From NCBI GenBank assembly GCA_050943575.1, contig JBMNPL010000002.1, positions 8,073-72,072 on the forward strand: a stretch of 64,000 bases of DNA, read 5' to 3'. Both the position numbers and the translations under genes were made by a program. The stretch comes from Alphaproteobacteria bacterium (GTDB taxonomy: Bacteria; Pseudomonadota; Alphaproteobacteria; Rs-D84). Below are positions 3,360-9,717 of this stretch, one piece after another; the first letter of the stretch is position 1, and each line of letters starts with the position of its first letter. The notes beneath the pieces were generated by a model. That model did not search any database and was not told the DNA's origin. It worked only from the letters and a program-made list of their open reading frames with translations.

Positions 3360-4346
3360 ATGAAAAAAAGATATGAAATTATTTTACTTGATTTATTATG
3401 GCTTTCCGCGATAGTCCTGTTTGCTAGCTTTTGGTTTGATATCAAGTTTAATTTTAATATCTTTTTCAAAGACCATTGGCACTATTTAATGCTGCAACAA
3501 TTAAACCCCGGTAGTGTTTTACCATCATTTTATATATCGTTAATAATATTTATTATTGTTGGTGTATCAGGGCTTTATTTTATAAGTCGTCCGCGTACAA
3601 GAAAAATAAATTTTGCAAATTATAAAGAACAAACAAATACACAAACTTTATCCCAAGAAAATTCACAAGGTAAAATTAATCCTATTAAGCAAGATTCTGA
3701 TAACGTACCATCAATTCCAACACCACCTATTCCACAACGCCCGCCAAAAATAATTAGACCATTACAGCAAATGATAACACCAATAACACCTGTACCTTCG
3801 GCACAAACAACTAGTTTTAATATAGATACAAGTAATCAAAATGAAAAATTAAAATCCATTTTTGAATCTGCTGGATATGTTGTTAAACAACCTCCTATAA
3901 TTAATGGATTAAAAATAAATCTTTGGGCGATTGGTATGGATGAAACTTTATATATTGGCTTTGCGGATCCTCATGGTGGTGATATTGTTGCTTCTGAAGG
4001 TGGTGATTCAAAATGGCAATCTGATAAAGATTCATTTCTTAGCCCTGTTTGGAATCTAAACCAATCATTAATGAAAATACGTTCTTTGTTTAAAGAAACA
4101 CTTGATGATGAAATACAAATAAATATTGAAGCTTTTGTTGTTATGAATAATGCAAATATAACAAATCGTGATGATTGGGAAAAAGTATGGCAAGCTTTCA
4201 ATATATCTGTATTTGATTCAACAGATACACTGGCTGAATTTATGAATAATAATAAAAACCGTGAAATGGAATCTGAAGAACAAGAGGATTTTGACGCATA
4301 TTCAGATTACATTGACACAGTGTCAAGTTATTTTAATAAAACTTAA
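3360..4346 (+). CDS. membrane protein with Pro-rich linker and C-terminal NERD-like (nuclease-related) domain
   Basis: 328 aa. Two N-terminal hydrophobic helices, then a PxP-rich low-complexity linker. The C-terminal domain has a NERD-like pattern (IGxDxxxYIGFxD...W......SPxxQ). Confidence 0.4.
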   Translation: MKKRYEIILLDLLWLSAIVLFASFWFDIKFNFNIFFKDHWHYLMLQQLNPGSVLPSFYISLIIFIIVGVSGLYFISRPRTRKINFANYKEQTNTQTLSQENSQGKINPIKQDSDNVPSIPTPPIPQRPPKIIRPLQQMITPITPVPSAQTTSFNIDTSNQNEKLKSIFESAGYVVKQPPIINGLKINLWAIGMDETLYIGFADPHGGDIVASEGGDSKWQSDKDSFLSPVWNLNQSLMKIRSLFKETLDDEIQINIEAFVVMNNANITNRDDWEKVWQAFNISVFDSTDTLAEFMNNNKNREMESEEQEDFDAYSDYIDTVSSYFNKT

Positions 4347-4348
4347 AA

Positions 4349-4855
4349 ATGCAATATAATCAAACGACTGCTCTTCGACGACTTACAGATCTTTTTATGG
4401 ATGATTTACCTGTAATATCTGTTCAGGTAAAACCGCACTCAATGTCACCAGATTGGTTTATAAAATATAAAAGTTTACGTCGTGATTTTATTCGTAGTTT
4501 ATCTGACTCAATAGAAGAAATTTCTTTTTTAAATTTATCACGTGAAGAATTTATGGCATTAATTATGGGGTATGCTTTGCCAGAAAACCTATCATTACGT
4601 TTTCGTATTCCTTTACAATTTGGTGGTAAATTAGAAATAAATAATATGTTTATGTGCAAAACATTCCCACATTCACAAAATATGGATAGATTTATTATTG
4701 AACAAGCCGGTAATAAAATAATCTGGTTGCCAAATCCAGCAAAAAAAATTTATATACCAGCACATACTACTGGTGGTGGACCTGGGGGCAATGCAACTAG
4801 TGGCAGATTAGAACAAATAGCGGCACAAATAGCCGCTGATAGAGGATTAGAATGA
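4349..4855 (+). CDS. hypothetical protein, first gene of a 3-gene overlapping operon
   Basis: 168 aa with a Gly-rich C-terminus (TTGGGPGGNATSG). Its stop overlaps the next start (ATGA at 4852). Confidence 0.45.
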   Translation: MQYNQTTALRRLTDLFMDDLPVISVQVKPHSMSPDWFIKYKSLRRDFIRSLSDSIEEISFLNLSREEFMALIMGYALPENLSLRFRIPLQFGGKLEINNMFMCKTFPHSQNMDRFIIEQAGNKIIWLPNPAKKIYIPAHTTGGGPGGNATSGRLEQIAAQIAADRGLE

Positions 4856-5295
4856 CCAAAGAAGAATTTTTATCTTGGGCGAAATCTTCGGGTGCAATTA
4901 TGTTACAAACAGCGAATGATAATGAAATCGCACAAACACAAAATGCACTGCAACAAATGCAGGCTGCAATAATTCCAATAACTTTGATAGAATTTTATAA
5001 AAATACAACAGGTGGAATTTTATTAGGCGATGCACAAATTTTTGGGCTTTCTGAAATAAAACGAGATAAAACCGGAATTTATTATATCCCATCTGTTTTA
5101 CAAATAAATCGTGATTTTGCCGGGTTACCTAATATTTATGGGAAAACTATATTTGGTAGAAATGGTTTATTTTGGCTGGCATTTGATGCATTTGGAAAAT
5201 GTTTTTTATTGAATAATATAACACTCGGATCAATGCGTAAATATGACAATATTTTTAAAGCAATGATTGATTGTTTGGCTGTTGGTAAAATATGA
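4852..5295 (+). CDS. hypothetical protein
   Basis: 147 aa. Translationally coupled to the flanking genes by 4-nt overlaps on both sides. Confidence 0.45.
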   Translation: MTKEEFLSWAKSSGAIMLQTANDNEIAQTQNALQQMQAAIIPITLIEFYKNTTGGILLGDAQIFGLSEIKRDKTGIYYIPSVLQINRDFAGLPNIYGKTIFGRNGLFWLAFDAFGKCFLLNNITLGSMRKYDNIFKAMIDCLAVGKI

Positions 5296-5513
5296 AAAAA
5301 ATTTCTGTAAATATATCTGGGCATCTAACTTCACTTTCTCTGGAAGACGAGTTTTTTGACATATTAAAAAAATTATCTGCCAAGAAAAATAAATCGGTCG
5401 CACAAATAATACGTGAAATTGATGAAACACGAGAAAATAAAAATAATCTTTCTAGTGCTGTACGTATTTGGATATTAAAAGAAATTAAAAAATATTGCCC
5501 ATTTATAAATTAA
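5292..5513 (+). CDS. ribbon-helix-helix domain protein
   Basis: 73 aa. The SLSLEDEFFDILKKLSAKKNKSVAQIIREID stretch resembles the conserved alphaproteobacterial RHH small-protein family. Confidence 0.5.
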   Translation: MKKISVNISGHLTSLSLEDEFFDILKKLSAKKNKSVAQIIREIDETRENKNNLSSAVRIWILKEIKKYCPFIN

Positions 5514-5518
5514 TCAAT

Positions 5519-7492
5519 TTAATTTTTATGTTTTCTAAATATAAAAATAGAAACCGCCGAAAATATCATAATAATAAACATCATGAAATTTAAACCAATG
5601 CGGCGAAATGGTGTTTGATGGGCGCCCCAAACTTGACCATCTAGAACATCAGAAACACCAATCGGAATATTTGAAATAATACGTCCATCTGCCCCGATAA
5701 ATGCGGATATACCAGAATAATTTGCACGAACCACCGGTAGTCCTGTTTCAATGGCTTGACGACGAGTCATATCTAAATGCTGATAAGTACCCGGTGTATT
5801 ACCAAACCAAGTATCGTTCGTAAGGTTTATTATCAAATGTGGATTTTTATTATATGGTATTAATGAATCTGAAAAAATAACCTCGTAACAAATTGCTGGA
5901 ACAAAATTTAATTCTGCAAAAATAATTTCTTCTGGACCATCGCCTTTTTTCAATTGACCTGGTGTTGGGATTATATCCCCGAATGGCCGATATTCACCAA
6001 ACGGAACTAAATGAGTTTTAGAATAAATTTTTTTAATTACACCATCTTTATCTGCGACAATCATTGAATTATAAAAATTTCCTGATTGCCAACTGGTTGC
6101 ACCAATAATAACTGGTTGGTTTAAATTTTTAACAAAATCTAATTTATCTTTATCTTGTAATATTATAAACGGATACGATGTTTCTGGGAAAATAATTATA
6201 TCTGGAGCACCTTTTTTAGATGCTAAATTTACCAATTTTTTTATATTTTCTTTTGCATTTGCTATTGCTTGTTCACGTGAATGACTTGCTTTTTGTTCAC
6301 CAGTTTGTGCAGGCTGAACAATTCTAATTATTTTTGATTTATAAGTATCGTTTTCTGACTTTTTTATATTATAATTTCCATAAAACATTCCAATAATAAT
6401 TAATATAGAAAAAATAATTATTGGAATCTTTTTTTTATTTTTAATCAGTTCAACTATACTGGCAATCAAACCAATAATTATAAAAGTCAAACCAATTGCG
6501 CCCCATAAAGACATAGAATTTGAAAGTATTGGTAGCCCTAGTGAAATATTTGAAATCGGATTCCATGGAAAACCCGTAAACAACCATTCTCGTAACCATA
6601 AAACAAATGTCCAAGATACAGAAAATATAAAAGGATAAATCTCTGTGGATGCATTTAACCGCCGCATACAATGATTTGTGATAATAAATGGTAATGAAAA
6701 AATTAATGCGCCGACGATACCTATTCCTATTATTCCTGGAATTACCCAAACCTTAAATTGATTGGCTAATTCTGGTACAACAAAGATAGAATTTAATACC
6801 CACCAAAATGATGTAATTGCATAAGCCATTCCGAACAACATTGAATCTTTAATAACTTTTTTTCGTTCTGAAATTAAATAATACATCCCCCCTATTCCAA
6901 TAATTGTTAACCACCATAAATTAAATGGTGCAAATCCCAACGATGTAATTGCGCCCAATAATAATGAATAAATTGAAAATAAAATATTTTTATTTTTTGA
7001 TTTTTGTTGTTTGTATGGATTACTAATTCCTATTTTTGATAAAACTTTTATTTCTACAGATTCCATTTTTTCAGCATCTTTTTTATTTAAATGATCATAT
7101 CCCAATAAATGTAAAACACCATGAACTATTAAATGAGAAACATGTTCTATGAAATCTTTTTTTTGATATTTAGATTCATGCATTGTTGTATCAAAAGAAA
7201 TATAAATATCACCCATTAATTCAATATCACCAGTTTCAAAAGATAAAACATTTGTTGGTTTATTTATATTTCTATATTTTTTATTTAATTTTTGAATTTC
7301 AAAATCGTTAGTTAAAATAATAGATACTTCACGCTTTATTTTATCTATATTGAGATTATTTGTAGATTTTTTTATTTTATTCTTAGTAGTTTTTTGTAAG
7401 GCAGTAATTATTGCTATATTAACTATATTAGCATAATCAATTTTATATTTTTTCCATCTGGAATCATGAATATCTATAAAAGTTTTTATCAT
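5519..7492 (-). CDS. lnt: in-frame fusion of endoribonuclease YbeY (N-terminal ~165 aa) and apolipoprotein N-acyltransferase Lnt (C-terminal ~490 aa)
   Basis: 657 aa single ORF. YbeY motif HGVLHLLGYDH, complete to its normal C-terminus (...GISNPYKQQ). It is followed without a stop or in-frame ATG by the Lnt TM1 (ILFSIYSLLLGAITSLGFAPFNLWW) and the CN-hydrolase domain. Confidence 0.7.
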   Translation of the reverse strand: MIKTFIDIHDSRWKKYKIDYANIVNIAIITALQKTTKNKIKKSTNNLNIDKIKREVSIILTNDFEIQKLNKKYRNINKPTNVLSFETGDIELMGDIYISFDTTMHESKYQKKDFIEHVSHLIVHGVLHLLGYDHLNKKDAEKMESVEIKVLSKIGISNPYKQQKSKNKNILFSIYSLLLGAITSLGFAPFNLWWLTIIGIGGMYYLISERKKVIKDSMLFGMAYAITSFWWVLNSIFVVPELANQFKVWVIPGIIGIGIVGALIFSLPFIITNHCMRRLNASTEIYPFIFSVSWTFVLWLREWLFTGFPWNPISNISLGLPILSNSMSLWGAIGLTFIIIGLIASIVELIKNKKKIPIIIFSILIIIGMFYGNYNIKKSENDTYKSKIIRIVQPAQTGEQKASHSREQAIANAKENIKKLVNLASKKGAPDIIIFPETSYPFIILQDKDKLDFVKNLNQPVIIGATSWQSGNFYNSMIVADKDGVIKKIYSKTHLVPFGEYRPFGDIIPTPGQLKKGDGPEEIIFAELNFVPAICYEVIFSDSLIPYNKNPHLIINLTNDTWFGNTPGTYQHLDMTRRQAIETGLPVVRANYSGISAFIGADGRIISNIPIGVSDVLDGQVWGAHQTPFRRIGLNFMMFIIMIFSAVSIFIFRKHKN

Positions 7493-9717
7493 AACAAATG
7501 TCTTTTGTTATTTGCGTCTGGACCAGATACAATACCTTCACGTTCCATACGTTCAATAAAGCCCGCTGCCTTGTTATATCCCACCCCTAGTCTGCGTTGA
7601 ACATAAGATATTGTTGGTCTGTTATCACGAACAACACATTCAACTGCTTGACGATATTGATCTGCGTCTTTTGCTTCCTTGCTTGTCATCATACCTGGAA
7701 TATCTGATACATCAACATTGCCATCAATTCCACTATTGTATTCATCATTCGATTCGCCAATACCATCTATATAATCTGGGCTGCCTTGGGTACGTAAAAA
7801 ATCAGCAACCTTTTTTATTTCTTTATTTTCTATAAATGCACCATGGATTCTAATTGGAGTCCTTCCACTTTCACTAAATAACATATCACCAGCTTGTAAT
7901 AATTGTTCTGCACCCTTTTCTCCCAAGGTGGTTATAGAGTCAATATTGGAGCGCGCCTGAAAAGAAATTCGTGTTGGTAAGTTTGCCTTGATTACACCGG
8001 TGATAACAGTGGTATCGGGTCTTTGTGTTGCAATAACTATATGTATACCAGCGGCACGTGCCTTTTGTGCTAAACGTTGAATACAGGCTTCAACTTCTTT
8101 ACGTGCAACAGTCATTAAATCCCCAAACTCTTCAACAATTATCACTAAATGAGGTATATCAGATAAATCTAATTCTTGATCTTCATATTCTAATGCACCT
8201 GTTTCTGAATCTGTTCCAACTGGGACTTGCTTGATGACTTTTTCACCACGTGTACGTAATTCAGCAACTGTTTTATTATAATTTTCTAAATTTTGAACTT
8301 TTAAATCTTTTAATTTTTTATATCTATCTTCCATTTCACGGACAGCCCATTTGAGAGTATTTACCCCCATATTTGGATCTGATACAATTGGTGTAATCAG
8401 ATGTGGAATATCTTGCCACAAGGCAAAGTCTACCCCTTTGGGATCAATAATAATTAATTTACATTTATCTGGGGTAAAATGATAAACAATGGACATAATA
8501 ATAGATTGAATAAAAACCGATTTACCACTACCTGTACGTCCAGCAATTAAAAGATGCGGCATTTTTGATAAATCATAATAAACTGGAATTCCAGCGATAT
8601 TAACACCCAATGCAAGAGGAATATGATATTTAGAGTTTATAAATGCATCATCTGTTACTAATGATCGGAAACGAATTAATTGACGATTTACATTTACTAA
8701 TTCTACACCTACATAATTACTGCGTGGAATATGTGCGATACGAATACTTTCAGTCGCCATGGCGCGTGTCATATCTTTGACTGTATCGGTAATTTTAGCC
8801 ATACGTTGACCTGCATCCGGTTCAAATTCATAAAGTGTAACAATTGGTCCTGGTTTAATCCCCACAACTTTTCCATAAACATTATAATCAGCAAAATTTG
8901 TTTCCAAATTAATCGCATGACGTTTTAAATCATTTGTAATTGTTAACTTGGCAAATTCCGATAATTCTAAAAATTCTGGTGGTGGTAATTTATAAATACT
9001 GGTAGATTGTTTATTTGTTTTATCTATTTGTTTTCGTCTTGGTTTTGATGTTTTTTCTTTTTCAACCACTTCTTCTATTTCTTCAACTTCTTCTGCCTCT
9101 TCTTCTATGTCTTTAATTTTTTTATATTTAATTGGTTGTAATTTTAAAATATTTAATAATACACCCATCCATTTTTTTATTATTTGCATAAAAGCTTTTA
9201 CATCTTGCCATTTAATGTTTAAAAGAGTCCCAGCCATAAATAAAAATAAAGTAATAAAAATTATACCAAAAATAAAAGTCCACCCTTTTGCAAATATGCC
9301 AATATCGTGTGCAACTATTGCTCCAATCAAACCACCCCATGATTTAGATGGCAAAATTGTACCGAAACCAAATGAACCGATTATAGTTGTAATAAATGCG
9401 CGGATAATATTATATTCTGGGGCAAATTCTTCCCATTTTAACATCATTGAGACACCATTGCGTATTATAAAAAGAAAAACAAATAGCGCGGGTATAAAAC
9501 CAATTCCATATAAAACAAAGCCGATAAAATTACCAATTAAACTTTGACGACCAAAAGTAGATGATGTTGCAAATCCATCCAGATACGGATTATGAAAAAA
9601 CAAAGCTAAACAAAACCAAATACCAATAAACAGCAAAAGTACACCAATGCCGCGAAAAAATATGTCACGAACAATACCCCGAATTGATTCAGGTAAAAAT
9701 TTTTGCTTTTTAGCCAT
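7489..9717 (-). CDS. ftsK: DNA translocase FtsK
   Basis: 742 aa. N-terminal TM helices, Walker A GRTGSGKSV, and a C-terminal gamma winged-helix domain. Overlaps the ybeY start by 4 nt. Confidence 0.85.
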   Translation of the reverse strand: MAKKQKFLPESIRGIVRDIFFRGIGVLLLFIGIWFCLALFFHNPYLDGFATSSTFGRQSLIGNFIGFVLYGIGFIPALFVFLFIIRNGVSMMLKWEEFAPEYNIIRAFITTIIGSFGFGTILPSKSWGGLIGAIVAHDIGIFAKGWTFIFGIIFITLFLFMAGTLLNIKWQDVKAFMQIIKKWMGVLLNILKLQPIKYKKIKDIEEEAEEVEEIEEVVEKEKTSKPRRKQIDKTNKQSTSIYKLPPPEFLELSEFAKLTITNDLKRHAINLETNFADYNVYGKVVGIKPGPIVTLYEFEPDAGQRMAKITDTVKDMTRAMATESIRIAHIPRSNYVGVELVNVNRQLIRFRSLVTDDAFINSKYHIPLALGVNIAGIPVYYDLSKMPHLLIAGRTGSGKSVFIQSIIMSIVYHFTPDKCKLIIIDPKGVDFALWQDIPHLITPIVSDPNMGVNTLKWAVREMEDRYKKLKDLKVQNLENYNKTVAELRTRGEKVIKQVPVGTDSETGALEYEDQELDLSDIPHLVIIVEEFGDLMTVARKEVEACIQRLAQKARAAGIHIVIATQRPDTTVITGVIKANLPTRISFQARSNIDSITTLGEKGAEQLLQAGDMLFSESGRTPIRIHGAFIENKEIKKVADFLRTQGSPDYIDGIGESNDEYNSGIDGNVDVSDIPGMMTSKEAKDADQYRQAVECVVRDNRPTISYVQRRLGVGYNKAAGFIERMEREGIVSGPDANNKRHLL

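What the first reader, a model, noticed from the sequence alone, without database searches (positions are those of the whole stretch)
5519..7492. In-frame YbeY-Lnt fusion where ybeY-tlyC-lnt is normally found
The YbeY endoribonuclease (HGVLHLLGYDH) is complete to its usual C-terminus (…GISNPYKQQ). It continues after only six residues (KSKNKN) into the first TM helix and full CN-hydrolase body of apolipoprotein N-acyltransferase. No in-frame ATG exists for an independent Lnt start. The hemolysin-C/CorC gene (tlyC) that usually separates these genes in alphaproteobacteria is absent. This suggests a deletion removed tlyC along with the ybeY stop and lnt start, leaving a topologically plausible chimeric protein with a cytoplasmic YbeY domain on the cytoplasmic N-terminus of Lnt. 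The junction lies in an A-rich, error-prone stretch (6985-7010).
Basis: partly seen in the sequence, partly recalled or inferred. Interest (0 to 1): 0.55.

Follow-up and report, generated by a model that had tools for sequence, protein, structure and literature searches.

The report
Conserved YbeY–Lnt fusion protein
One 657-residue protein joins a ribosome-maturation RNase (YbeY) to the membrane enzyme that finishes lipoproteins (Lnt); the fusion is genuine, old and conserved across a clade of uncultured alphaproteobacteria, not a sequencing error or a recent deletion in this genome.

Summary
Window 5519..7492 (-) is one 657-aa ORF with a complete YbeY domain (residues ~1-160), a short basic linker, and a complete Lnt with eight predicted membrane helices and a nitrilase domain.

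The "deletion or possible error in this genome" reading is only partly right. All 120 listed homologue clusters (48-100% identity) carry YbeY, LNT_N and CN_hydrolase in one protein. The fused proteins form a clade with 100% bootstrap. The YbeY zinc histidines, R59- and D85-equivalents, and Lnt residues E437/K492/C535 are invariant, while the linker varies freely (14% identity, about 4-41 residues).

The ancestral order phoH-ybeY-corC-lnt is confirmed in E. coli, in the locus of an unfused YbeY 51% identical to this one, and in most of 80 metagenomic lnt loci. Two loci lack corC but remain unfused: one has TAA then GTG in frame, the other an 8-nt overlap.

No conserved internal start or SD motif supports a separate Lnt. 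The most likely product is a bifunctional protein whose cytoplasmic YbeY is tethered to Lnt's first membrane helix. I found no paper describing it, and NCBI- and JGI-derived names call it only Lnt. Whether it is the genome's only YbeY is untested. Interest is moderate.

The parts
5519..7492 (-). Whole ybeY-lnt fusion ORF, 657 codons plus a TAA stop at 5519-5521
   Evidence: ORF; domains; conserved fused homologues
7013..7492 (-). YbeY endoribonuclease domain, residues 1-160 ending in NPY, with a variable low-confidence insert at residues 33-54
   Evidence: Pfam PF02130 and TIGR00043; 39% identity to E. coli YbeY; model matches PDB 1xm5 with TM-score 0.78; core mean pairwise identity 66% in the clade
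7091..7123 (-). Zinc-binding motif H124-x3-H128-x5-H134, equivalent to E. coli H114/H118/H124
   Evidence: Invariant in 83 of 83 fused proteins; mapped to E. coli; reported as required for RNase activity in PMC5101352
7064..7066 (-). M143, the only in-frame ATG near the junction; a conserved YbeY residue, not a credible Lnt start
   Evidence: no SD-like motif upstream
6998..7012 (-). Linker, residues 161-165 (KQQKS), continued by the basic KNKN at the start of TM1; A-rich DNA
   Evidence: pLDDT dips to 66 for residues 161-170; linker column identity 14%; approximate length 4-41 residues and mean net charge +1.6 across the clade
6338..6997 (-). Lnt membrane domain, residues 166-385, with seven long predicted helices starting at TM1 (166-186)
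   Evidence: LNT_N Pfam hit; aligned to solved E. coli and P. aeruginosa Lnt from TM1; helices in the model; Foldseek TM-score 0.72-0.78 to Lnt structures
5618..6337 (-). Lnt nitrilase-like domain (periplasmic in published Lnt structures), residues 386-625, with E437 (6182-6184), K492 (6017-6019) and C535 (5888-5890)
   Evidence: CN_hydrolase and TIGR00546 hits; these three residues plus the E343/Y388/E389 equivalents are invariant; triad residue identities from PMC8689077 and PMC3850990
5522..5617 (-). C-terminal segment, residues 626-657, containing the last Lnt membrane helix (634-656)
   Evidence: Helix 634-656 in the model; hydrophobic segment 631-655
7489..9717 (-). Upstream ftsK; its TGA stop overlaps the fusion ATG (ATGA), suggesting co-transcription or translational coupling. 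phoH/ybeZ is not upstream.
   Evidence: same arrangement in relative L004

Best explanation
This is a genuine, ancient, selectively maintained gene fusion that encodes one bifunctional inner-membrane protein. The N-terminal YbeY domain, a zinc-dependent endoribonuclease for 16S rRNA 3'-end maturation and ribosome quality control, sits in the cytoplasm. A short, variable, mostly basic linker ties it to the first of eight Lnt membrane helices. Lnt's nitrilase domain faces the periplasm and N-acylates apolipoproteins.

The fusion arose in an ancestor of a clade of uncultured Alphaproteobacteria from the widespread operon phoH(ybeZ)-ybeY-corC(ybeX)-lnt. corC was lost from between the two genes, and then the ybeY stop and lnt start were lost.

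Shown here: the ORF, the domain content, clade-wide conservation, invariant catalytic residues, the ancestral gene order, and the absence of a conserved internal start.

Inferred: both enzymatic activities persist; translation gives a single polypeptide; YbeY therefore works while tethered to the membrane; and this is the cell's housekeeping YbeY.
For: 1. All 120 listed homologue clusters (48-100% identity, 637-850 aa) carry PF02130, PF20154 and PF00795 together. The exhaustive search finds about a dozen fused representatives at 50% clustering, down to 36% identity. Further fused loci occur in metagenomes: L010-L012.
2. In NJ trees with 200 bootstraps, the fused proteins including P0136 are monophyletic at 100% (Lnt alone and concatenated). 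The most divergent member, L009, joins at 50% but shares the downstream synteny DksA-thioredoxin-SufS-FeS_assembly_P.
3. Purifying selection acts on both halves. Mean pairwise identity is 66% for the YbeY core, 63% for the nitrilase domain, 55% for the membrane domain and 14% for the linker.
4. These YbeY residues are invariant in 83 of 83 sequences: H124/H128/H134, R74 (E. coli R59) and D95 (E. coli D85, the S11 interface). The same holds for Lnt E437/K492/C535 and E500/Y536/E537 (residue roles).
5. The AlphaFold model has mean pLDDT 87.5 and pTM 0.76. It shows a folded YbeY, a 12-residue coil, then TM1, with seven long helices before the nitrilase domain and one after. It matches full-length Lnt structures and YbeY 1xm5.
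6. The linker is net positive in 72% of members, consistent with a cytoplasmic location.
7. Ancestral order: E. coli has miaB-ybeZ-ybeY-ybeX-lnt. L008 has phoH-ybeY-brnTA-corC-lnt. In 56 of 80 metagenomic lnt loci corC lies directly upstream of lnt, and 44 of those also show ybeY upstream of corC.
8. Candidate intermediates: L014 has ybeY, TAA, then a GTG-started lnt in the same frame, with an AAGGAAG SD-like motif. L024 has an 8-nt overlap, ATGAATAA.
9. No conserved SD plus start exists at the junction of six fused genes, although 40% of long ORFs in the window have an SD-like core against 5% at random positions.
Against: - No direct evidence exists for the protein product or for either activity.
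- Whether these genomes carry a second standalone ybeY or lnt could not be tested. Only 64 kb of this genome and 18 kb or less of relatives were readable.
- The aromatic residue equivalent to E. coli Lnt W237, reported as essential in E. coli, is non-aromatic in all 15 fused sequences examined. This is also true of the unfused low-GC relatives L074 and L084. The functional M. tuberculosis Lnt conserves only 5 of 7 such residues.
- The E. coli YbeY K61 and R44 equivalents are not conserved. A hydrophobic residue at the K61 position is, however, common in ordinary unfused YbeYs.
- A very short tether (about 10-12 residues in this window) may restrict YbeY's access to 30S subunits.
- The sister relationship of L014 and L024 to the fused clade has only 38% bootstrap support, and L009's inclusion only 50%.
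Confidence: 0.8

Rival explanations
1. Artefact: a sequencing or assembly error in the A-rich junction hides the ybeY stop codon, and the genes are really separate.
For: The junction DNA (about 6985-7012) consists of A runs, and a one-base shift gives a TAA immediately. In the distant locus L014 the two genes are separated by only one stop codon, in the same frame.
Against: An identical protein is on record from a Logan assembly (P0001). Eight relatives at 72-78% identity and more than 100 at 48-63% keep one ORF through linkers of different length and sequence, many of them not A-rich. Fused genes also occur in GC 0.36-0.60 contexts.
Confidence: 0.01
2. One ORF but two proteins: Lnt is produced separately, either by internal initiation near the junction (M143, a non-ATG codon, or a Met in the linker) or by proteolytic cleavage of the variable linker. 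YbeY would then be soluble as usual.
For: M143 is an in-frame ATG present in 83 of 83 members. In addition, 38 of 83 have some Met between NPY and the end of TM1. The linker is unconserved and modelled with lower confidence, as expected for a cleavable tether.
Against: M143 is conserved because it is a YbeY family residue, present also in E. coli. No SD-like motif precedes it, or any in-frame start at a position that would give an intact Lnt, in the six fused genes examined; the two SD-like hits found in L009 and L010 precede in-frame TTG codons inside the YbeY C-terminal helix. The genome uses SD-like motifs at 40% of long-ORF starts. The SD plus GTG seen in unfused L014 has been erased here. 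Linker Mets are not positionally conserved. Cleavage cannot be assessed from sequence.
Confidence: 0.1
3. The YbeY domain is retained but repurposed. It would serve as a cytoplasmic structural or regulatory appendage of Lnt, or as a membrane-localised RNase with a new substrate range, while a separate standalone YbeY elsewhere in the genome does the ribosomal job.
For: The rest of the genome was not available. The R44 and K61 equivalents differ from E. coli. The very short tether seems awkward for acting on 30S subunits.
Against: YbeY is normally single-copy in bacteria (general knowledge, not tested here). The fused domain is the most conserved part of the protein at 66% identity. It keeps the zinc triad, R59 and the S11-contact D85 in every member. 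The K61-position variant is common in ordinary YbeYs. No second ybeY occurs in the window or in the neighbouring DNA of four relatives.
Confidence: 0.07

Closest known systems
The ybeZ(phoH)-ybeY-ybeX(corC)-lnt operon of E. coli, Salmonella and other Proteobacteria
   Same: It has the same two enzymes, in the same order and on the same strand. The order is confirmed in E. coli K-12, described in the literature, and found in most metagenomic lnt loci examined.
   Different: In that operon there are four separate genes. Here corC is gone from between ybeY and lnt, phoH is not upstream (ftsK is), and ybeY and lnt form one reading frame.
Adjacent but unfused ybeY|lnt loci L014 and L024 (uncultured, from metagenomes)
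   Same: corC is already missing and ybeY abuts lnt directly. L014 is in the same frame with only a TAA between the genes, and L024 overlaps by 8 nt.
   Different: They still have a stop codon and their own lnt start, with an SD-like motif in L014. Identity to the window protein is only 29-31%, and the sister relationship is weakly supported at 38% bootstrap.
Mycobacterium tuberculosis Ppm1 (Rv2051c / BCG_2070c), a two-domain protein with an Lnt domain and a polyprenol-monophosphomannose synthase domain
   Same: It is a natural fusion of a complete, functional Lnt to the product of a neighbouring gene. The two are separate adjacent genes in relatives such as M. smegmatis MSMEG_3860/3859 (PMC3850990).
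   Different: The partner is a glycosyltransferase of envelope biogenesis fused at Lnt's C-terminus. It is not an RNase fused at the N-terminus, and the lineage is Actinobacteria.
Membrane-associated RNases: E. coli RNase E (membrane-targeting sequence) and B. subtilis RNase Y
   Same: These are RNA-processing endonucleases held at the cytoplasmic face of the inner membrane. About 93% of E. coli RNase E is at the membrane (abstract of PMC12594526). This shows that RNA processing from a membrane tether is workable.
   Different: They are unrelated folds, and they are anchored by their own amphipathic helix or membrane segment rather than by fusion to another enzyme. The comparison is about how it may work, not about family membership.

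Membership tests
YbeY (PF02130 / TIGR00043, rRNA maturation RNase) | Profile match above the curated cut-off | tested here: met
   PF02130 scores 108.3 bits against a cut-off of 25; TIGR00043 scores 119.3 bits against a cut-off of 45
YbeY (PF02130 / TIGR00043, rRNA maturation RNase) | Zinc-binding H-x3-H-x5-H motif (E. coli H114/H118/H124) | tested here: met
   H124/H128/H134 are invariant in 83 of 83 fused proteins
YbeY (PF02130 / TIGR00043, rRNA maturation RNase) | Active-site basic residues R59 and K61 (reported as required in E. coli, PMC5101352) | tested here: inconclusive
   R59 corresponds to R74, which is invariant. K61 corresponds to I76 and is hydrophobic in 78 of 83, with K or R two positions later in 76 of 83. 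The same variant occurs in many ordinary unfused YbeYs.
YbeY (PF02130 / TIGR00043, rRNA maturation RNase) | S11-binding beta-sheet residues T42, R44 and D85 | tested here: inconclusive
   D85 corresponds to D95, invariant. T42 corresponds to S57, invariant and conservative. R44 corresponds to I, V or T, so it is not conserved.
YbeY (PF02130 / TIGR00043, rRNA maturation RNase) | YbeY fold | tested here: met
   Domain pLDDT is about 90 or higher outside the insert. Foldseek matches E. coli YbeY 1xm5 with TM-score 0.78 normalised to the target. Sequence hits to 1xax, 1xm5 and 1oz9.
YbeY (PF02130 / TIGR00043, rRNA maturation RNase) | Endoribonuclease activity and 16S rRNA 3'-end maturation | not testable with these tools
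   Needs biochemistry or complementation
Lnt, apolipoprotein N-acyltransferase (TIGR00546; PF20154 + PF00795) | Profile match above the curated cut-off for the equivalog | tested here: met
   TIGR00546 scores 238.8 bits against a cut-off of 132.9, covering the whole 395-position profile. LNT_N scores 76.1 bits and CN_hydrolase 86.7 bits.
Lnt, apolipoprotein N-acyltransferase (TIGR00546; PF20154 + PF00795) | Catalytic triad Glu267-Lys335-Cys387 | tested here: met
   E437, K492 and C535 are invariant; triad identity from PMC8689077
Lnt, apolipoprotein N-acyltransferase (TIGR00546; PF20154 + PF00795) | Other residues reported as essential in E. coli: W237, E343, Y388, E389 | tested here: inconclusive
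   E343, Y388 and E389 are conserved in all sequences. The W237 position is non-aromatic in 15 of 15 fused sequences, against aromatic in 39 of 43 unfused. The functional mycobacterial Lnt keeps only 5 of 7.
Lnt, apolipoprotein N-acyltransferase (TIGR00546; PF20154 + PF00795) | Eight membrane helices plus a periplasmic nitrilase-like domain | tested here: met
   The model has seven long helices before the nitrilase domain and one after. Foldseek TM-score is 0.72-0.78 over about 490-510 residues of solved Lnt. Architecture as described in PMC8689077.
Lnt, apolipoprotein N-acyltransferase (TIGR00546; PF20154 + PF00795) | N-acylation of apolipoproteins | not testable with these tools
   Needs biochemistry or complementation of an Lnt depletion strain

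The most novel reading that the evidence does not exclude
The fusion is a 'Rosetta stone' for a real functional coupling between YbeY and Lnt. In this reading, YbeY-dependent ribosome or RNA quality control takes place at the membrane next to the lipoprotein-maturation machinery, for example on ribosomes or mRNAs engaged in envelope protein synthesis. That would explain why ybeY and lnt have stayed in one operon across Proteobacteria. It would also make this clade a natural case in which the cell's only YbeY is obligatorily membrane-bound at one-to-one stoichiometry with Lnt.
Probability: 0.12. Interest if true: 0.7.

Novelty: new variant of a known kind. Interest (0 to 1): 0.4.

Why it matters
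- **YbeY biology.** If this is the only YbeY in these bacteria, an otherwise soluble, near-universal ribosome-maturation RNase works while welded to an integral membrane enzyme by a tether as short as about ten residues. That constrains models of how YbeY reaches the 30S subunit, and it offers a natural construct for testing them.
- **The operon question.** The fusion adds fusion-type evidence to the unexplained but widespread linkage of ybeY and lnt in the ybeZYX-lnt operon.
- **Gene-fusion evolution.** The data show a plausible path with living intermediates: four separate genes, then corC lost with the genes abutting or overlapping, then loss of the stop codon.
- **Annotation.** NCBI- and JGI-derived names call these proteins only 'apolipoprotein N-acyltransferase'. 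YbeY can therefore look absent from these MAGs in gene-name-based inventories.

Tried and rejected
- **GTDB genome scan.** The scan with the single protein used patterns too specific to the query. The window's own genome was not found among the species representatives.
- **Rfam.** Nothing was found in the window.
- **AlphaFold-database fold search.** The library was unavailable, so I could not list named UniProt organisms with the fusion.
- **First YbeY tree.** My coverage filter dropped most sequences. The analysis was redone.
- **K61 as a sign of lost RNase activity.** The hydrophobic residue at the E. coli K61 position looked suspicious, but it is common in unfused YbeYs, so I rejected this idea.
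- **Internal Lnt start at M143, M203 or TTG179/185.** Rejected. M143 is a family-conserved YbeY residue without an SD motif. M203 and the TTGs lie inside TM1 or TM2 and are not conserved.
- **Downstream gene cluster.** PADLOC and NCBIfam searches gave no assignment.
- **Literature.** Five searches found the operon but no description of a YbeY-Lnt fusion or a membrane-anchored YbeY.
- **Taxonomy.** It could not be refined beyond the NCBI labels 'Alphaproteobacteria bacterium' and 'Rickettsiales bacterium'.
Full report
**1. The observation.** Window 5519..7492 on the minus strand is a single 657-codon ORF that starts with ATG (sequence). Pfam places YbeY at residues 33-153, LNT_N at 180-340 and CN_hydrolase at 415-610. 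The NCBIfam equivalog models for the YbeY RNase (TIGR00043, 119 bits, cut-off 45) and for Lnt (TIGR00546, 239 bits, cut-off 133, full profile length) both pass. E. coli YbeY aligns up to its residue 154 of 155, at window residue 164. Solved E. coli Lnt aligns from its residue 15, inside TM1, at window residue 174 and runs to the C-terminus. Two complete proteins are therefore joined end to end. M143 (7064-7066) is in frame, 17 codons before NPY160 at the end of the YbeY domain.

**2. It is not an artefact or a private accident of this genome.** A search of 5.8 billion proteins returned 3103 hits. All 120 listed hits (48-100% identity, 637-850 aa) carry PF02130, PF20154 and PF00795 together. 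Several are named 'MAG: apolipoprotein N-acyltransferase [Alphaproteobacteria bacterium]' or '[Rickettsiales bacterium]'. An exhaustive HMMER scan of 1.84 billion 50%-identity representatives, using the N-terminal 352 residues, found about a dozen fused representatives. These include divergent ones: P0136 at 44% identity and P0140 at 36%, the latter from a 60% G+C contig. Ordinary YbeYs of about 150 aa follow in the ranking. Close relatives at 72-78% identity have linkers of different length and sequence, yet all remain in frame. A hidden stop in the A-rich stretch is therefore excluded for practical purposes.

**3. Both halves are under selection and the linker is not.** Across 28 diverse members, mean pairwise identity is 66% for the YbeY core, 63% for the nitrilase domain, 55% for the Lnt membrane domain and 14% for the linker. 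In 83 members the following are invariant:
- YbeY H124/H128/H134, equivalent to E. coli H114/H118/H124;
- R74, equivalent to R59;
- D95, equivalent to D85, the S11-contact residue;
- Lnt E437, K492 and C535.

PMC5101352 describes the roles of the YbeY residues. PMC8689077 and PMC3850990 give the Lnt catalytic triad as Glu267, Lys335 and Cys387, and an alignment that includes E. coli Lnt places E, K and C at those three columns in every fused sequence. The equivalents of the further essential Lnt residues E343, Y388 and E389 are also conserved in all sequences examined.

There are two departures. The K61-equivalent in YbeY is hydrophobic in 78 of 83 members, but this variant is common in ordinary unfused YbeYs, so it says nothing about the fusion. 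The aromatic residue equivalent to Lnt W237 is non-aromatic in all 15 fused sequences examined, against aromatic in 39 of 43 unfused ones, and the core clade has a 7-residue insertion just after it. Two unfused low-GC relatives (L074, L084) also lack the aromatic residue, and the functional mycobacterial Lnt keeps only five of the seven 'essential' residues. I treat this as a caveat, not a refutation.

**4. Structure and topology.** AlphaFold2 with an 83-sequence alignment gives mean pLDDT 87.5 and pTM 0.76. The model has these elements:
- a well-folded YbeY domain whose last helix is 137-153;
- a coil at 154-165, with pLDDT of 66 for the block 161-170;
- TM1 at 166-186;
- six more long helices up to residue 379;
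- the alpha/beta nitrilase domain;
- a final helix at 634-656.

Foldseek matches the model to full-length E. coli and P. aeruginosa Lnt (TM-score 0.72-0.78 normalised to the target) and to E. coli YbeY 1xm5 (0.78). No solved structure spans both domains. Published Lnt has eight membrane helices and a periplasmic nitrilase domain. Seven helices before that domain place the N-terminus, and hence YbeY, in the cytoplasm. The linker supports this: it carries net positive charge in 72% of members, and it is +4 here in KQQKSKNKN. That Lnt's N-terminus is cytoplasmic in E. coli also matches my own recollection of the literature.

**5. Where it came from.** E. coli K-12 has miaB-ybeZ-ybeY-ybeX-lnt, and papers describe the ybeZYX-lnt operon. 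P0143, an unfused YbeY 51% identical to this one, lies in phoH-ybeY-brnT-brnA-corC-lnt (L008). I then scanned JGI metagenomes with the family alignment and classified the 80 best lnt loci with my own HMMs:
- 41 show phoH-ybeY-corC-lnt.
- 3 more, cut by contig ends, show ybeY-corC-lnt.
- 12 show corC-lnt.
- 19 show lnt only, and many of these are truncated.
- 3 are fused (L010-L012).
- 2 are a new class, with ybeY directly next to lnt, no corC, and no fusion.

In L014, ybeY ends '...NPYKED TAA' and lnt starts at the very next codon with GTG, in the same frame, with AAGGAAG seven bases upstream. A single substitution in TAA would create the fusion. In L024 the two genes overlap by 8 nt (ATGAATAA) in different frames. 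NJ trees with 200 bootstraps put all fused proteins, including P0136, in one clade at 100% for Lnt alone and for concatenated YbeY+Lnt. The most divergent member, L009/P0140, joins at only 50%. However, it shares the downstream genes DksA, thioredoxin, SufS and FeS_assembly_P with the window and L004. L014 and L024, with three low-GC canonical loci, form the nearest neighbourhood, but with only 38% support. The best reading is a single old fusion. It probably arose stepwise, with corC lost first and the stop codon lost later, rather than by one deletion that removed corC, the stop and the start together. Within the fused clade, neither corC nor phoH is near the gene. Upstream is ftsK, with its stop overlapping the fusion start as ATGA in the window and in L004, or a TPR protein in L005.

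**6. One protein or two?** In the window, the only in-frame ATG, GTG or TTG codons between the end of YbeY and TM2 are TTG179 and TTG185, inside TM1, and M203, inside TM2. None is conserved and none gives an intact Lnt. M143 is invariant, but it is the family 'ME..E' motif also present in E. coli YbeY, and it has no SD-like sequence. Across six fused genes no SD-like motif precedes an in-frame start at a position that could give an intact Lnt; the only SD-like hits, in L009 and L010, precede in-frame TTG codons inside the YbeY C-terminal helix. In this window 21 of 52 long ORFs have an SD-like core at -18 to -4, against 5% of random positions. The SD plus GTG that serves lnt in unfused L014 has no counterpart here. 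I therefore favour translation as one polypeptide. Post-translational cleavage of the variable linker cannot be judged from sequence.

**7. How it most likely works.** The following is inference. Each domain does its usual job. Lnt transfers an acyl chain from a phospholipid to the N-terminal cysteine of apolipoproteins on the periplasmic side. YbeY, on the cytoplasmic side, cleaves the 17S rRNA precursor near the 16S 3' end with guidance from S11 and Era, whose contact residue D85 is kept. The fusion forces equal synthesis of the two and holds YbeY at the membrane. Membrane-held RNA-processing nucleases are workable, as RNase E and RNase Y show. A natural fusion of Lnt to the product of a neighbouring gene is known from M. 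tuberculosis Ppm1. The fusion may have been fixed neutrally in a streamlined lineage, or it may confer an advantage. The data do not distinguish these.

**8. Novelty and score.** Both enzymes are well known, and fusion of operon neighbours is a common evolutionary event. The fused proteins are already in public databases, where the NCBI- and JGI-derived names call them only Lnt. Five full-text searches found no description of a YbeY-Lnt fusion or of a membrane-anchored YbeY. I rate it a new variant of a known kind with moderate interest (0.4). It would rise if complete genomes show that this is the only YbeY. It would rise further if the fusion reflects real coupling between ribosome quality control and lipoprotein maturation (probability about 0.12).

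**9. Limits.**
- No whole genome of the clade could be read, so paralogues and the fate of corC and phoH remain unknown.
- The trees are distance-based.
- Inter-domain confidence of the structural model was not available.
- Taxonomy rests on NCBI MAG labels.

Noticed in passing
window 3360-5513 (+); also L004 10306-12434, L005 11091-13187, L006 5425-7065: A conserved four-gene cluster lies convergent to the fusion and directly downstream of it. It comprises an RHH_4 protein (73 aa), a 147-aa protein (weak, sub-threshold YrhA/YPO0640-like hit), a 168-aa protein with no family, and a ~325-aa protein with N-terminal membrane segments and a proline-rich stretch with no family. It is kept in relatives whose fusion protein is only about 48% identical to this one, but it is absent from L009. 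No PADLOC match.
   Followed up: partly
linker of fused homologues, e.g. P0071, P0093, P0102, P0108, P0118, L010-L012 (equivalent to window ~6998-7012): 31 of 83 fused proteins have a cysteine-rich insert in the linker (C..CCPG-like, three or more Cys), followed by a conserved amphipathic motif (F..R.K.RENG.WQY) just before TM1. This could be a metal-binding or membrane-surface element. The window's own linker lacks it.
   Followed up: partly
window ~7330-7396 (residues 33-54 of the fusion): A variable lysine/asparagine-rich insertion sits in the N-terminal half of the YbeY domain. It ranges from 0 to about 60 residues among relatives and is modelled with low confidence (pLDDT 53-70).
   Followed up: no
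window ~6280-6300 (residues ~399-410, QKASHSREQAIA): The fused clade lacks the aromatic residue equivalent to E. coli Lnt W237 and carries a 7-residue insertion right after it. Unfused relatives mostly keep F, W or Y at that position.
   Followed up: partly
window 7489-7492: The ftsK stop codon overlaps the fusion start codon (ATGA). The same 4-bp overlap occurs in relative L004, which suggests translational coupling of ftsK and ybeY-lnt. There is no SD-like motif upstream of the fusion ATG.
   Followed up: partly
window 1-64000: No Rfam family reached its gathering score anywhere in the 64 kb, so there is not even a tRNA.
   Followed up: no
L008 1185-1734: In the locus carrying P0143, an unfused YbeY 51% identical to this one, a BrnT/BrnA toxin-antitoxin pair is inserted between ybeY and corC. 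The ybeY-corC junction can evidently tolerate rearrangement.
   Followed up: no
L014 2040-2055 and L024 ~425-440: Two metagenomic lineages have ybeY and lnt adjacent without corC. One has TAA then GTG in the same frame, and the other an 8-nt overlap. They are candidate intermediates on the path to the fusion. Their taxonomy is unknown.
   Followed up: yes
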